From positions 197,408,001 through 197,472,000 of the forward strand of contig OX597815.1 in the NCBI GenBank assembly GCA_951406725.2: a DNA stretch of 64,000 nt. The letters run 5' to 3'. Source of the stretch: Octopus vulgaris (lineage: Eukaryota). The translations under genes and the position numbers were made by a program. Shown in pieces: positions 1,616-56,777 of this stretch; position 1 is the stretch's first letter; every line of letters begins with the position of its first letter. The notes under the pieces are model-generated. The model was not told the origin of the DNA and made no database searches. It saw only the letters and a program-made list of their open reading frames with translations.

Positions 1616-1777
1616 CGGACTAAACACGTAAATGTGAAACAAGGTGGAAAAAAGAGTACTCAAATACCAGGGGTAGAATAATATGCTTTATTTAAAAGCA
1701 GTAGAAAATTCAACGAAACCTATTACTCTGAGTAACAGGTTTTGTTGAATTGTCTGCTGCTTTTAAATAAAGTATAT
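1616..1777. mobile_element. Short fold-back (1681-1777) with one-sided tail between (TA)n tracts; probable PLE terminus
   Basis: About 48-bp imperfect arms centred on TTACTC-T-GAGTAA at 1729; extra left tail 1616-1680. Confidence 0.55.
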
Positions 1778-1820
1778 ATATATATATATATATATATATA
1801 TATATATATATACATATATA

Positions 1821-2650
1821 CAGACATGAAAGAAGTTAATAGACACCCTTATAACCATTAAGATTTATTTAAAACTGAAATTATACATTCAAAATATTTG
1901 TTAGTTGTTATAATGTGAACATTTAATATTTAGTAGACATGCTCTTTGCATTCTTTAATGGAAGGACCCTACAATGCATGTCATTGATCAGATGGTGAAT
2001 ATTCTCTTGAGAAATTTCTTGCTAAGTTTCATGCAATAATCTCAAAAGATCTCGCTTTGAAGATGCTTTCTTGTTTTGTTTATAAAATGTCTTGTCCGTT
2101 ATGCCCCAGAGGTGTTCTATAGGGTTCATATCTGGTGACTCGCATGGCTATAGAAGCTTTCTAAAAGCATTCTTTTCCAACAAATCTTGGGTCACCTTAA
2201 TCTTGTGATAAGGATCCCACCTTCCATAAATAGTGAGTCTTCTTTAATCATCTCAACCTTGGAGAAGTTTTGAAGGAGTCCTTTCTGCAATATGGACACA
2301 TATTTATTTGAGTTTATGTTTCCCTCACCCTCCACCAGCTCTGATCAACCATTGCTCCAAATTGCACATCAAATTCTTTATCACAGAATCTCCAGACTCA
2401 CACACGACAACTGTTAGGAAATACAGCCAAGCAAATCTGGACTCATCAGAGAATATGACGGTGTTCTAAAATGCTAATGGCCTCTCCACCATCTCACCGG
2501 CCCAAGCTTTTCTCCGCTTCATATTGGCTGGTCAAAGATGTGCCTTCTTTCTTCCTGCTCTGCCATAGTTACCAAGTTTGTGGAGATACCTAACAGCTGT
2601 TCTGGGACTGACATCAACTTGTTCTGCTATGTCAGAGGTCTTGCAACGAG
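1821..2650 (-). mobile_element. Tc1-like (DD34E) transposon remnant, cut by a LINE insertion
   Basis: Minus-strand motifs VIFSDESRF and ESPDMNPIEHLWG; TA-CAG terminus near 1819-1823. Confidence 0.8.
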
Positions 2651-2651
2651 G

Positions 2652-3168
2652 ATTAGTTAGTTAGTTAGTTAGTTAATTTGGCTCAAAAGCAAATAGCAAG
2701 GCCATGTAGGGGGACATGGAGTTAAGTACAGGGTGGTGTTCATGTAAAGAGTTCAGGCCACTTGAGGTCAGGGGAGGCTTTGAACAAAGCGGTCGTCGGC
2801 ATCTTCACCATCTCGTCTGGAAGCTTGTTCCACGGATCCGCAACCCGGACGGAGAAAGCTCCTCTCCTTCGATTGAGATGAAATCGTCGCAGGTAGAGCT
2901 TTTCGGAATGACCCCGCAGCCGACGCTCCGGAGCAGGAGTGAAGAACAGCTCTTTCGAGAGGTTACACTTCCCGCTTATGATGTTGTGGGCAAGAAAGAG
3001 ATCACCACGGCGACGGCGTTTTTCAAGAGAACAAAGGTCGGGCGTCCTCAGCCTTTCTTCGTAGGACAAATTTTTGAGACCATGAACCATGCGGGTAGCC
3101 AGCCTCTGGACTCTTTCGAGGTGCTGTATGTCTTTGAGGAGATAAGGAGAAGAGGCTTCTCCTCTTAG
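2652..3168 (-). mobile_element. CR1/L2-group LINE 3' fragment with (CTAA)n tail
   Basis: ORF 2740-3090: LSYEERLR...LEKRRRRGDL...FSVRVADPWNKLP, a typical CR1-group ORF2 C-terminus. Confidence 0.85.
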
Positions 3169-53063: not shown

Positions 53064-54722
53064 TCATAAATAATAAATAATTTTGGAAATAATTAATCTC
53101 CATTGTCGAAGTCAACACGTTCTCAATAGGTTCTTATATTCTAGTTATCACTAAACCTCTGTATATCCCTCATGAATTTGAAATATGAGCAATCAGTAGC
53201 ATTGCCAAAACAGTAGAGAGATTCATCATATAACACGGTGCAAAATTTCCTAGAAAAGTGTCATAATGTTCCTTCATACTGAACAGATTTATGGAAGAAA
53301 ATATCTAATATTCTTAAGAACTGAATAAATGATTATAGACTGTGTTATTTGGATAGTGTGGCAACATGATATATATTGATACCATTTTCACGTAAGGAAG
53401 TGTGTAGCCTGGTTTTACCAAATTTACCAAATTTTCTCTTGATTCAGAAATTAAAACTGAATAAAACGTATTAATAATTTTATCGTATGGTTGAAAATTT
53501 AATTGCCAAATGAGTTTTAATGTTTGATGCATGGAAAATTCAAGTAGAATGTAAACTTCTGATAATTGATTAATTAAAATAACAGCAAATATTTTGCAAT
53601 GGAAAGCTGATCAAAGTAAATATAGTTTGAAATTCTAACCAGCGCAGTTTTCAACTCCCGTAAATTTGCCAAATATGTTTCGACATGATCGATGAACTAG
53701 ATTAAATTGATGGCTCGGATAACTTAAATGCATCATACATTATTTGGTTAGTCAGGATAAATGTCCAATGATTTGACGAGTGCTGACTTGTACAAGCTAA
53801 CCAAAAATGAGAAGCTCTCCAGTTAGAAAGCTACAGGATATTGGAGCGTGACCGGAATTCAGCTTACACATGAAGTAGGGAAGGAATAACGGAAACATTA
53901 ATCACGTTTAATTTGAAATGCATTAATCATTTGAATATTAACACCTATTTAGCAGTTAATGCTATTAAATGAACTATTTAGTTAAATGTTTTAGCGACTT
54001 TCTGGAAACTAGCCCAAATCTCCCATGATATTTATACATTACTTATATTACTAAAGAATTGACATTTCTTAAAGTTACCAAAGACGTCATATATATATAT
54101 ATATATATATATATATATATATATATATATATATATATATATATGTATGTATGTATGTATATATATGTGTATGTATGTATGTATAGCTCACTAAGTGAAT
54201 TGGATTTTGAATTGAAAATTTAAGCTACATACCTGAATTATCTGGCGTTGAGAAAATTATAAAGATGTAAATTAGTTTAAAATTTTGACACAAGGCTTGT
54301 AATTTTTGGTGGACGAGGTTAGTTGAATATATTGACCCCCCCAGTACATTGGTACATTATTTTCACGAATCAGAAGGGATGAATTGTGGAGTCGAACTCG
54401 GTGGAACTTCAAAAAATAATGTAAATGGTCGTAATAAAGTGAGCCAATTATTTGGTCCGACGTGCTAAGGATTACGCCAGCTCACCGCCTTAACAGGCAT
54501 ATATATATTTCAATGTGTATAAAGAAAAAAGTAAATCATGATATTTCTAGAGTTTCTGGCGTCGTAAGGGTGGTACATACAATCACACATACACTTGCAC
54601 AGTATACACACACATACACAAACACACACATATATATATATATATATATATATATATATATATTATTGGTGAATTGAAGAAATGGAGCTGAACGCAGATT
54701 GAACAGAAATCGTTTTATTTCA

Positions 54723-54802
54723 TTCTACACGTGTTTCGAAAGGCACAAATTACCAAAATCCGATGGAATAATGGGACCATATTGTGTCTTTCTCTTCAGG
54801 AA
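54723..54802 (-). ncRNA. Type I hammerhead ribozyme (left arm)
   Basis: Reverse complement of 54926-55005. Confidence 0.85.
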
Positions 54803-54925
54803 GAAAATAGGAAATCCGTTGGAAAAACAAAAACAGAACAGAGGCGGAGCAAAAACAAATCGAACTATGCTCCTAAGAGCCCATGGCGAAACTCTTTTTG
54901 TTTTTCCAACGGATTTCCTATTTTC

Positions 54926-55005
54926 TTCCTGAAGAGAAAGACACAATATGGTCCCATTATTCCATCGGATTTTGGTAATTTGTGCCTTTCGAAACACGTG
55001 TAGAA
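54926..55005 (+). ncRNA. Type I hammerhead ribozyme (right arm)
   Basis: TTC-CTGAAGA-GAAAGACACAA...TTGTGCCTTTC-GAAA-CACGTG-TA-GAA; canonical core; GUA cleavage site. Confidence 0.85.
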
Positions 55006-56777
55006 TGAAATAAAACGATTTCTGTTCAATCTGCGTTCAGCTCCATTTCTTCAATTCACCAATAATGTTCTAATTTCAATTATCCGCACCAACGCACGGT
55101 TGCAACACCATATGGTTGTACCTCCAGCCGTGCTGTTTTACTGCTGTGATTTTTGCTACTAAGGTATCGGTTAAACTTTTGATTAATCTACTACAAGATT
55201 ATTCATCTTTCTATTTCACATAAATTATATATATATATATATACATATGCATACATACATACACACACGTATATGTTTATATATGTATATGTAAATATAT
55301 ATGTATATGTATATCTATCTATCTATCTATCTATCTATCTATCTATCTATCTATCTATCTATCTCTATCTCTCTCTCTCTCTCTCTATATATATATATAT
55401 ATATATATATATATATATATCTGATAATATTTAAACATTTTGGCACCGGATCAGCAGTTTTTGTGGAAAGGGGAAACCCGATTGCATCGACGCCAGTACT
55501 TAACTGGCACTTATTCTATCGACCTCGAAAGAATGAAAGAGAAAGTCGACCTCGGCAGATTTGGGGCACAGAATGTGAAGACGGACGAAATGGTATTAGC
55601 TACTTTGTTCTGCAACTATATCCGTTTACTTTAGAAAAGCATCTACTGAAAAGCATCTACTGATTTCCAGCCAACCATTTAAAAGTTATTCTTAATAGGT
55701 TTTGAGGCAGAAATGTAAATATCTTACTTTTCTCACCGATATTATTTGAAGAAGATTGTCGATGCTTTTAGGTAAGAATTTATAAGATCTGGATTTCGGT
55801 TGTCTGAGAGAACATGACTTATTGCAAATGCGAAAGTTATATGACACTTAGTTCAAGTAATAAGATGTCTCGCTAGCATGGAACTCTCTCGAGCAGTTTC
55901 CACTATCTCGTATTTAATACATTTACAATAATAGATACCGAATTGAAAATTATGTACATATTACTTAGTGAAATGAAAACATTATTGAAAACATTCCCAT
56001 TTCCTCAAATCTTTATTACATATTCATCAATATTTAAAACCGATAACACTAAATTTTCTTATCTGATCTACCTCCAGTAATACAAATCTTTTCACTCTGG
56101 CGAACAAAATAACTTTTATCTAAGCAAGCGAAATATGTTTTATAATTAATTCTTCGTTATTCAGTTTCTCTTTCATTTCACTTAATAATCTGTGACCAAT
56201 GGCGCTTTGATCACTGCTTGTTCTACTAAGAAAAAAATAATAACATACTCATACTGTGCATCACTTTATACTTAACTTCATCCATGCTCTTTCTTGATAT
56301 TATATTCATTACAGGAAAGTGAATTGTATGATATATGTAATAATTGATTGAGCGAACTGCTTTCATATCTCTTTCGAACAGAAATTCTACAACTATAGTA
56401 TACATAATGTTGTCATAATACAGACAGTTTTGAAATTCCATTTAAATATGTGAATAACATCTGCTTTAAGTACTTCTCATTTATTGAAATTTATTCATAA
56501 TTTACTCGTTATCGAAAACATTCATTTTTTTTCAGTTCTTCAATTAACGATCACTGTATAAAATATTATTTGCGTACATCATTAAATACATCCACAAATA
56601 CTTGAGTGACCCTTATCCATAATATTGCTTTATTTCAAGTATTTTAAACCGGAATATTTTTGTTTTGGGTTTATGTAAAATGCTGCCAGCGAAGACCTAC
56701 CCGAAATCACGTTTTTCAAGGAAAAATTACATTTGCTTACTAACCAAATGACATGGTGATAGTAAGTCGTATACATT

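What the first reader, a model, noticed from the sequence alone, without database searches (positions are those of the whole stretch)
1616..55226. Recurring non-coding hammerhead fold-back mini-elements embedded in microsatellites
Seen: four loci with different arm sequences (1616-1777, 10770-10998, 33575-34241, 54662-55226) share one layout. Each has inverted arms, a 65-160 nt tail on one side only, microsatellite flanks and no ORF, with a complete or partial type I hammerhead reading outward in the arms. Known: PLE termini carry minimal type I hammerheads and often form inverted pseudo-LTRs with a tail. Inference: these are either PLE insertion by-products or an unannotated class of non-autonomous, MITE-mimicking ribozyme retroposons mobilised by PLE RT. 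Four in 64 kb would imply a very high genomic copy number.
Basis: partly seen in the sequence, partly recalled or inferred. Interest (0 to 1): 0.75.

Follow-up and report, generated by a model that had tools for sequence, protein, structure and literature searches.

The report
Truncated back-to-back Penelope retrotransposon ends
The four fold-back repeats are real, and each matches the ribozyme-bearing end of a different protein-coding Penelope-type jumping gene in the same genome; they are likely short dead-end copies made afresh at each insertion, in a layout already described, and not a new self-spreading element.

Summary
The layout is real at all four loci. The hammerhead is complete only at loci 3 and 4, half present at locus 2 and nearly absent at locus 1.

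Each unit is the 3' end of a different ORF-bearing Penelope-like element (PLE) with Hydra-clade motifs. Loci 1 and 4 have intact tandem parents (3,362 and 3,625 bp). Locus 3 even holds its parent's last codons.

Across copies both outer ends are fixed, but the inner junction differs: 66 distinct in 74 (family 1), 17 in 17 (family 2), 34 in 34 (family 4). Lengths run from about 100 bp to full length. The 'inverted copy plus tail in (TA)n' layout is published, and this scan has noted it elsewhere in this genome.

One extra: 84 of 100 family-1 insertions stop within 156 nt of the 3' end, at an initiator-like site and not at the ribozyme cut site. They may be copies of the mRNA leader. The scan noted similar walls in other genomes. 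This is untested.

The parts
1616..1733 (-). Locus 1, tail-bearing arm: last 117 nt of family-1 PLE (3,362-bp unit, 711-aa ORF); tail 1616-1685
   Evidence: 91.5% to parent unit in L340; parent ORF
1725..1772 (+). Locus 1, second arm: parent positions -117 to about -71; overlaps the first arm in the 9-nt palindrome of hammerhead stem III; no catalytic core
   Evidence: same junction in the top hits
10770..10935 (-). Locus 2, tail-bearing arm: last 160 nt of family-2 PLE; tail about 100 nt; half hammerhead (GAAA, stem III, cut site)
   Evidence: 90.4% to L307; parent EN remnant upstream in long copies
10935..10998 (+). Locus 2, second arm: parent positions -166 to about -103; half hammerhead
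   Evidence: 94.2% to L307
33577..33941 (-). Locus 3, tail-bearing arm: last 373 nt of family-3 PLE, with a complete type I hammerhead (core at 33765, cut site at 33690)
   Evidence: 85% to L230; hammerhead scan
33940..34082 (+). Locus 3 spacer: parent positions -1318 to -1208, the last codons of the ORF and start of the 3' UTR, joined to the second arm (template jump or deletion)
   Evidence: 70% to L230; translation matches the EN C-terminus of L230 and family 2
34074..34241 (+). Locus 3, second arm: parent positions -249 to about -83; hammerhead core decayed
   Evidence: 86.6% to L230; no scan hit on this arm
54662..54893 (-). Locus 4, second arm: parent positions -157 to -389 of family-4 PLE (3,625-bp unit, 899-aa frame); complete hammerhead 54799-54726; arm ends at the initiator-like site with one extra G
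   Evidence: 99.6% to L032
54892..55223 (+). Locus 4, tail-bearing arm: last 332 nt of family-4 PLE; complete hammerhead 54929-55002; tail 55067-55223
   Evidence: 99.4% to L032

Best explanation
Each locus is a head-to-head pair of 5'-truncated copies of the 3' end of a different ORF-bearing Penelope-like element with Hydra-clade motifs, likely written afresh at each insertion by that element's own enzyme. SHOWN: parents with ORFs; two fixed outer ends per family (tail end and a second site 66-72, 99-106, about 80 and 151-160 nt further in); variable inner junctions; (TA)n flanks; a length continuum up to more than one full unit. INFERRED: the RT-endonuclease protein nicks both strands of a (TA)n run. 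Each nick primes cDNA on the element's RNA, one at each of two fixed internal start sites, and the distance between them is the tail. Both cDNAs stop early and are joined end to end, often through a few matching bases or a short palindrome. The RNA template was mostly not cut by its hammerhead. The ribozyme is a passenger of the pseudo-LTR. The stubs are likely dead on arrival.
For: PARENTS: family 4, tandem array with a 899-aa frame, window copy 99.4-99.6% identical. Family 1, tandem copies with a 727-aa frame, 711 aa from Met; its model (pLDDT 93.5) best matches telomerase TERT, E 1.5e-9. Families 2 and 3 continue upstream into endonuclease remnants homologous to family 4.

JUNCTIONS: family 1, first 100 tail-motif matches on contig C1, not ranked by similarity: 74 of 100 two-armed, 66 distinct junctions, commonest 7; second arm ends at -66 to -72 in 63 of 74. 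Family 2, 26 tail-anchored loci: 17 two-armed, 17 distinct junctions, outer end -99 to -106 in 16 of 17. Family 4, 37 loci: 34 two-armed, 34 distinct, outer end -151 to -160 in 32 of 34. Family 3, tail arms 88-1,441 nt in 30 loci.

ONE TEMPLATE PER INSERTION: arms within an insertion differ 2.7% versus 6.3% between insertions, and 59 non-majority sites are shared by both arms (44 pairs). One hammerhead haplotype makes up 12 of 15 motifs in long copies and 23 of 60 in short copies. Locus 3 contains ORF-end sequence from 1.2-1.3 kb upstream.

UNCUT TEMPLATE: 3 of 135 arms end at the cut site, 2.3 expected.

LITERATURE: inverted 5'-truncated copy, tail, (TA)n target and Hydra motifs (PMC8557442); dual minimal hammerheads 100-700 bp apart on opposite strands, attributed to truncated PLEs (PMC4209133); two internal RT start sites define the tail, both strands are cut and extended, cleavage is not needed in vitro (PMC11167929).
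Against: Some junctions recur: 7 of 74 family-1 copies share one junction, and 10 of the 30 best hits to locus 1 share its junction and one haplotype. A small amount of secondary copying of whole stubs is therefore not excluded. Arm-to-arm similarity could also arise by gene conversion after insertion. Tails here (about 70-157 nt) are longer than the 30-40 bp described. No intact parent was found for families 2 and 3, only remnants. Target-site duplications cannot be read inside (TA)n. Samples for families 2-4 are BLAST-ranked top lists, not random. Two-strand priming and end joining are inferred from DNA, not observed.
Confidence: 0.9

Rival explanations
1. The stubs are a non-autonomous, MITE-mimicking ribozyme retroposon class: a fixed palindromic unit is transcribed and re-inserted whole by PLE RT.
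For: Most family-1 insertions are short (84 of 100 within 156 nt). The 30 best hits to locus 1 nearly all share its fold-back point. Some hammerhead haplotypes are commoner in short copies.
Against: The shared junction is a ranking artefact plus a palindrome hotspot. It occurs in 2 of 30 tail-anchored hits, one being the window itself, and in none of the 100 position-ordered copies. Copies with that junction carry four different centre bases and several haplotypes, mostly mirrored in both arms (74 of 84 diagnostic-site comparisons agree). The tail lies on either side of the asymmetric loop. Junctions are all distinct in families 2 and 4. Loci 1 and 2 have no complete ribozyme.
Confidence: 0.05
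2. The palindromes arise by fold-back self-priming: one cDNA (or an antisense RNA) snaps back on a short inverted sequence and is copied back outward, and the tail comes from endonuclease resolution, as proposed for rotifer Penelope elements.
For: Junction hotspots sit on short native palindromes (stem III at locus 1; the -152 palindrome in 7 of 74). The two arms share variants. Self-priming was proposed in PMC3846280. This rival accepts the by-product verdict and disputes only the step that makes the second arm.
Against: Many pairs are strongly asymmetric, with the second arm reaching far beyond the tail arm (336 vs 2,085 nt and 559 vs 2,771 nt in family 4; 103 vs 948 nt in family 2; locus 3 itself). 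A snap-back of the first cDNA cannot copy sequence it does not contain. The second arm has its own fixed outer end, matching a second RT start site seen in vitro.
Confidence: 0.15
3. The units are MITEs of a cut-and-paste DNA transposon that target TA.
For: Terminal inverted repeats and TA flanks look MITE-like.
Against: The arms are 85-99% identical to PLE 3' ends. The tail lies outside the inverted repeat. Internal lengths vary continuously into the PLE ORF.
Confidence: 0.01

Closest known systems
Insertion units of endonuclease-bearing PLEs, Hydra clade (Craig et al. 2021, PMC8557442; includes Hydra-1_Obim from Octopus bimaculoides)
   Same: Inverted 5'-truncated copy joined at the 5' end; one-sided tail; (TA)n target; hammerhead in the pseudo-LTR; single RT plus C-terminal endonuclease ORF with RWK, DKT and CxCX5C motifs. 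The family-1 protein shares long motif runs with Hydra-1_Obim, and its hammerhead closely resembles that at the 3' end of the Hydra record printed just before Hydra-1_Obim (read by eye).
   Different: Tails are about 70-157 nt, not 30-40. Units are 3.4-3.6 kb, not under 3 kb, with long 3' UTRs. Family 4 has RW(L), a long Ser/Asn-rich insert and no clear CxCX5C. By eye, neither intact protein is Hydra-1_Obim itself.
Dual minimal hammerheads on opposite strands in Schistosoma mansoni (Cervera and de la Pena 2014, PMC4209133)
   Same: Two minimal type I hammerheads 100-700 bp apart on opposite strands, attributed to truncated PLEs; palindromic helix III.
   Different: Stem II is long here in families 2-4 (55-59 nt between the core halves). 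Junction statistics were not in the passages read.
Poseidon_Ac of the green anole in vitro (Frangieh et al. 2024, PMC11167929)
   Same: Two internal RT start sites whose distance is the tail; AT-rich target; both strands cut and extended; hammerhead cleavage not required.
   Different: Different clade. There the starts lie 111-118 nt inside the ORF; here the tail ends 67 nt (family 1) and 46 nt (family 4) before the start codon. Inverted junctions were not analysed in the parts read.
Metazoan non-LTR retrozymes (PMC7229834; bioRxiv 10.64898/2026.07.22.740005)
   Same: Non-coding DNA with type I hammerheads linked to PLE pseudo-LTRs.
   Different: Retrozymes are tandem repeats of a fixed monomer with a complete ribozyme per unit. 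These loci are single, inverted, variably truncated ends of coding elements.

Membership tests
EN+ PLE insertion unit | Sequence continuous with a single RT plus GIY-YIG-type endonuclease ORF | tested here: met
   Intact frames for families 1 and 4; remnants for families 2 and 3. Best fold match TERT. Pfam gave no significant hit, so the endonuclease call rests on motifs and alignment.
EN+ PLE insertion unit | Tandem or partial-tandem copies forming pseudo-LTRs | tested here: met
   Three-unit array in L031/L032; L340 and L341. Not found for families 2 and 3.
EN+ PLE insertion unit | Adjacent inverted 5'-truncated copy and one-sided tail | tested here: met
   74 of 100, 17 of 26 and 34 of 37 insertions in families 1, 2 and 4.
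EN+ PLE insertion unit | Type I hammerhead in the pseudo-LTR | tested here: met
   Motif in all four families. Cleavage activity not tested.
Hydra clade | RWK and DKT motifs in the N-terminal RT region | tested here: met
   Family 1 has both; family 4 has DKT and RW(L). Region not recovered for families 2 and 3.
Hydra clade | CxCX5C linker; CxxC and CxH around the conserved E and N; no CCHH | tested here: inconclusive
   CxCX5C in family 1 (L340) and family 2, degenerate in the family-3 remnant, not evident in family 4. CxxC and CxH in families 1, 2 and 4. CCHH absence judged by eye only.
Hydra clade | Insertion into (TA)n | tested here: met
   Tail end followed by TA repeats in 86 of 100 family-1 copies; same in families 2-4.
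Hydra clade | Phylogenetic placement with described Hydra RTs | not tested
   No tree with published sequences was built; only a by-eye comparison with supplement sequences.
Non-LTR retrozyme | Tandem repeats of a fixed non-coding monomer, each with a complete hammerhead | tested here: not met
   No tandem array at any of the four loci; lengths and junctions vary.
Non-LTR retrozyme | Circular or monomeric RNA in vivo | not testable with these tools
   Only assembled contigs of guessed RNA runs were available.
MITE | Fixed length and internal sequence; TIRs at both termini shared with a DNA transposon | tested here: not met
   Variable interior, tail outside the repeat, arms match PLE ends.

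The most novel reading that the evidence does not exclude
Most short stubs are copies of the mRNA leader, a PLE counterpart of retroviral strong-stop DNA. RT starts at its two internal sites in the 5' pseudo-LTR of the element's own uncut mRNA and runs off the capped 5' end, and two such cDNAs are joined and inserted. The pile-up of arm ends at -150 to -156 (family 1) and at -389 (family 4), both on an initiator-like A and sometimes with an extra G, would then map the promoters from DNA alone and explain why inverted pseudo-LTR stubs outnumber full copies.
Probability: 0.4. Interest if true: 0.55.

Novelty: new member of a known kind. Interest (0 to 1): 0.25.

Why it matters
As filed, it matters little: four more families of a described PLE clade, inserting in a described layout. 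Two practical points remain. Such stubs mimic MITEs and miRNA hairpins (Rfam matched miRNA models below threshold), and the parent proteins escape Pfam, so annotation pipelines can mislabel thousands of copies. Second, young intact parents plus thousands of stubs give nucleotide-level footprints of PLE integration, whose mechanism is still open: two fixed start sites, uncut templates and, in family 1, a sharp 5' wall that one 5'-RACE experiment could test.

Tried and rejected
1. Locus 1 folds back at the hammerhead cut site (my first idea). Rejected: the centre is the stem III palindrome, and 3 of 135 arms end at the cut site versus 2.3 expected.
2. Family 1 is a stand-alone 155-nt non-autonomous RNA (from, where no copy extended further). 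Rejected: a motif search found 3,061 matches, many in 3.36-kb ORF-bearing copies.
3. A guessed continuation beyond the family-1 tail: 0 matches, a misreading of one locus.
4. Pfam and PDB sequence searches of the parent proteins: no significant hit. Among four homologues only one fused protein hit GIY-YIG. The single-sequence fold was unusable (pLDDT 33.9).
5. RNA evidence: no RNA holder listed on record, only contigs of guessed RNA runs. Single contigs with template-switch adapters began near -138 in family 1 and near -375 to -381 in family 4, where the adapter end can pair internally. Neither is at the wall; no verdict.
6. A 5' wall in families 2 and 3: none seen.
7. One search's first pass gave false second arms from a TA run in the reference. 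It was redone with that run masked. Rows dropped before counts: family 2, four segmental duplicates (L176-L179) and two low-complexity second-arm hits (L182, L186); family 4, ten reverse-strand duplicates among L019-L029 and the tandem array L031/L032, five second arms with outer ends outside -40 to -119.
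Full report
VERDICT. The four fold-backs are real but ordinary in kind. Each is a back-to-back pair of truncated 3' ends of a different ORF-bearing Penelope-like element (PLE). The genome (G000, 2.80 Gb, 227 contigs) is likely an octopus; I infer this from size, repeat content and earlier scan notes and did not determine the species. Positions with a minus sign count from the element's 3' (tail) end.

1. OBSERVATION. 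All four loci have inverted arms, a tail on one side and simple-repeat flanks. A custom type I hammerhead scan found four complete motifs: both arms of locus 4, one arm of locus 3, and a separate stub at 35,110. It found none in 30 local shuffles. Rfam showed only sub-threshold matches, mostly miRNA hairpin models, among the 150 rows listed of 187. Locus 2 has half a hammerhead and locus 1 only stem III and the cut site. Loci 2 and 3 are related.

2. PARENTS. Locus 4 is 99.4-99.6% identical to the end of a 3,625-bp unit found as a tandem array with an 899-aa open frame. Locus 1 is about 90% identical to the end of a 3,362-bp unit with a 711-aa ORF, also found in tandem. That protein has 1,074 homologues among 7,996 scored candidates. 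Its alignment-based model (pLDDT 93.5) best matches telomerase TERT, the expected sister group of PLE RTs. Pfam found nothing significant for either protein. Walking upstream from loci 2 and 3 led into endonuclease remnants homologous to the family-4 protein; no intact parent was found for these two. Motifs (RWK, DKT, CxCX5C, CxxC and CxH, TA target) fit the Hydra clade of PMC8557442, whose supplement lists an octopus member. Family 4 fits only in part. Locus 3's spacer is the parent's ORF end, 1.2-1.3 kb upstream, so its template was a long coding RNA.

3. Searching with a whole unit ranks copies with the same junction first, and for locus 1 this looked like a fixed element. Samples anchored on the tail alone removed that impression. 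The cleanest sample is the first 100 of 7,503 exact matches to a family-1 tail motif, in position order on contig C1. Of these, 74 have an inverted second arm, whose outer end lies at -66 to -72 in 63; there are 66 distinct inner junctions, the commonest in 7 copies. Family 2: 17 two-armed insertions among 26 loci, all junctions distinct, outer end -99 to -106 in 16. Family 4: 34 two-armed among 37 loci, all distinct, outer end -151 to -160 in 32, arms 203-3,625 nt. Family 3: tail arms 88-1,441 nt among 30 loci. So the outer ends are fixed and the inner junctions are not.

4. ARE STUBS COPIED AS UNITS? Mostly not. Arms of one insertion differ by 2.7% against 6.3% between insertions (44 pairs). 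The commonest hammerhead haplotype is shared by long and short copies. Copies with locus 1's own junction show four centre bases and several mirrored haplotypes. Against this: 10 of those 30 share one haplotype, and 7 of 74 share another junction, so a little secondary copying cannot be excluded; gene conversion could also homogenise arms.

5. MECHANISM. Shown: the geometry above. Inferred: the element's protein nicks both strands of a (TA)n run; each nick primes cDNA at one of two fixed internal sites on the RNA; both cDNAs stop early and are joined. This matches in vitro work on an anole PLE, where both strands are extended, two start sites bound the tail and hammerhead cleavage is dispensable. 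Strongly asymmetric pairs argue against simple snap-back. Arms show no excess at the ribozyme cut site (3 of 135, 2.3 expected), so templates were mostly uncut.

6. THE 5' WALL. In family 1, 84 of 100 insertions have all arms within 156 nt. Of 101 arms reaching -140, 78 end by -156, against about 9 expected from the rate nearer the end; beyond -170 the rate falls about 30-fold from its peak. BLAST ends are uncertain by a few bases, and the -146 peak may be an alignment stop in a variant subfamily. In family 4, 10 of 40 arms of the 20 short insertions end at -388 to -396 and none beyond (ranked sample). Both walls sit on an initiator-like A (consensus recalled). An extra G precedes it in 4 of 8 family-4 arms, 2 of them not supplied by either arm; in family 1 a G precedes it in 6 of 14 rows, all explicable by the other arm. 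The D. virilis Penelope promoter lies in the pseudo-LTR, so a leader run-off is plausible.

Against the leader reading: in family 1 the wall is also the base of an extended stem I (pair probability only 0.35-0.43); families 2 and 3 show no wall; arms longer than one unit end at -723, -228, -242 and -39 of the next unit, not at -155; RNA contigs gave no verdict. I put it at 0.4. Five literature searches listed no paper describing such a wall, but they cover only part of the literature and I judged most hits by title and abstract start.

7. KNOWN OR NEW. The layout is published: inverted 5'-truncated copy, tail and (TA)n target (PMC8557442), and dual opposite-strand minimal hammerheads 100-700 bp apart from truncated PLEs (PMC4209133). 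These loci fail the retrozyme and MITE tests. Earlier notes of this scan report the same layout elsewhere in this genome and similar walls in other genomes. I reached both readings before looking; the notes are unchecked and are not independent support.

PAPERS SEEN. PMC8557442: passages, section 11, supplement rows and passages. PMC11167929: parts 1-2 of 4. PMC4209133: part 1 of 4 and passages. bioRxiv 10.64898/2026.07.22.740005: part 1 of 5, supplements not seen. PMC3846280, PMC2377424, PMC6962438, PMC7229834, PMC13282606: passages only.

SCORES. Interest 0.25; new member of a known kind; best explanation 0.9; leader-copy case probability 0.4, interest 0.55 if true.

Noticed in passing
window 43892-49437 (frame 44512-46350, minus strand): A PLE of another clade in partial tandem: 613-aa open frame with RVT_1 and weak GIY-YIG Pfam hits, 99.5% identical to a copy in L041. 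Young, possibly active.
   Followed up: partly
window 35040-35118, minus strand: A fifth complete type I hammerhead (core 35110, cut site 35071) in a short stub between (TA)n and (ATT)n with no inverted arm; probably a one-armed PLE end of another family.
   Followed up: partly
window 1-408 and 29817-30134: Two further fold-backs (85% and 65% self-complementary) with no hammerhead hit; family unknown.
   Followed up: no
window 9495-9531 and 10729-10765: Perfect 37-bp inverted repeats bounding a 1.27-kb element directly beside locus 2; resembles a Tc1/mariner-type TIR (label recalled).
   Followed up: no
window 820-1186/2656-3019, 11728-11861/12068-12201, 16499-16651/17878-18031: Other long inverted pairs (92%, 100%, 86%); the second consists of SINE-like pieces around an AT-rich array.
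   Followed up: no
window 24388-24449, minus strand: Hammerhead-like core with a long stem III and only a 3-bp stem I; may be chance.
   Followed up: no
L293, L299, L303, L307 (family-2 parents): Long (AAT)n Asn-rich expansions between RT and endonuclease, like those described in Adineta vaga Penelope elements.
   Followed up: no
L340:998-8598 and L341:1410-6996: Family-1 insertions with arms longer than one unit (both arms in L340), which need a multimeric or circular RNA template.
   Followed up: partly
family-1 copies L360-L456: Many copies, mostly short ones, have a hammerhead core CCGAYGA instead of CUGAUGA; effect on cleavage unknown.
   Followed up: no
run X12 laid on L340:5256-5266: Two single contigs with many T>C changes in the tail, as A-to-I hyper-editing of the antisense strand would give; the run is only guessed to be RNA.
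   Followed up: no
L175-L179 (contig C29, 19.7-20.1 Mb): One family-2 insertion copied five times with its flanks by segmental duplication.
   Followed up: no
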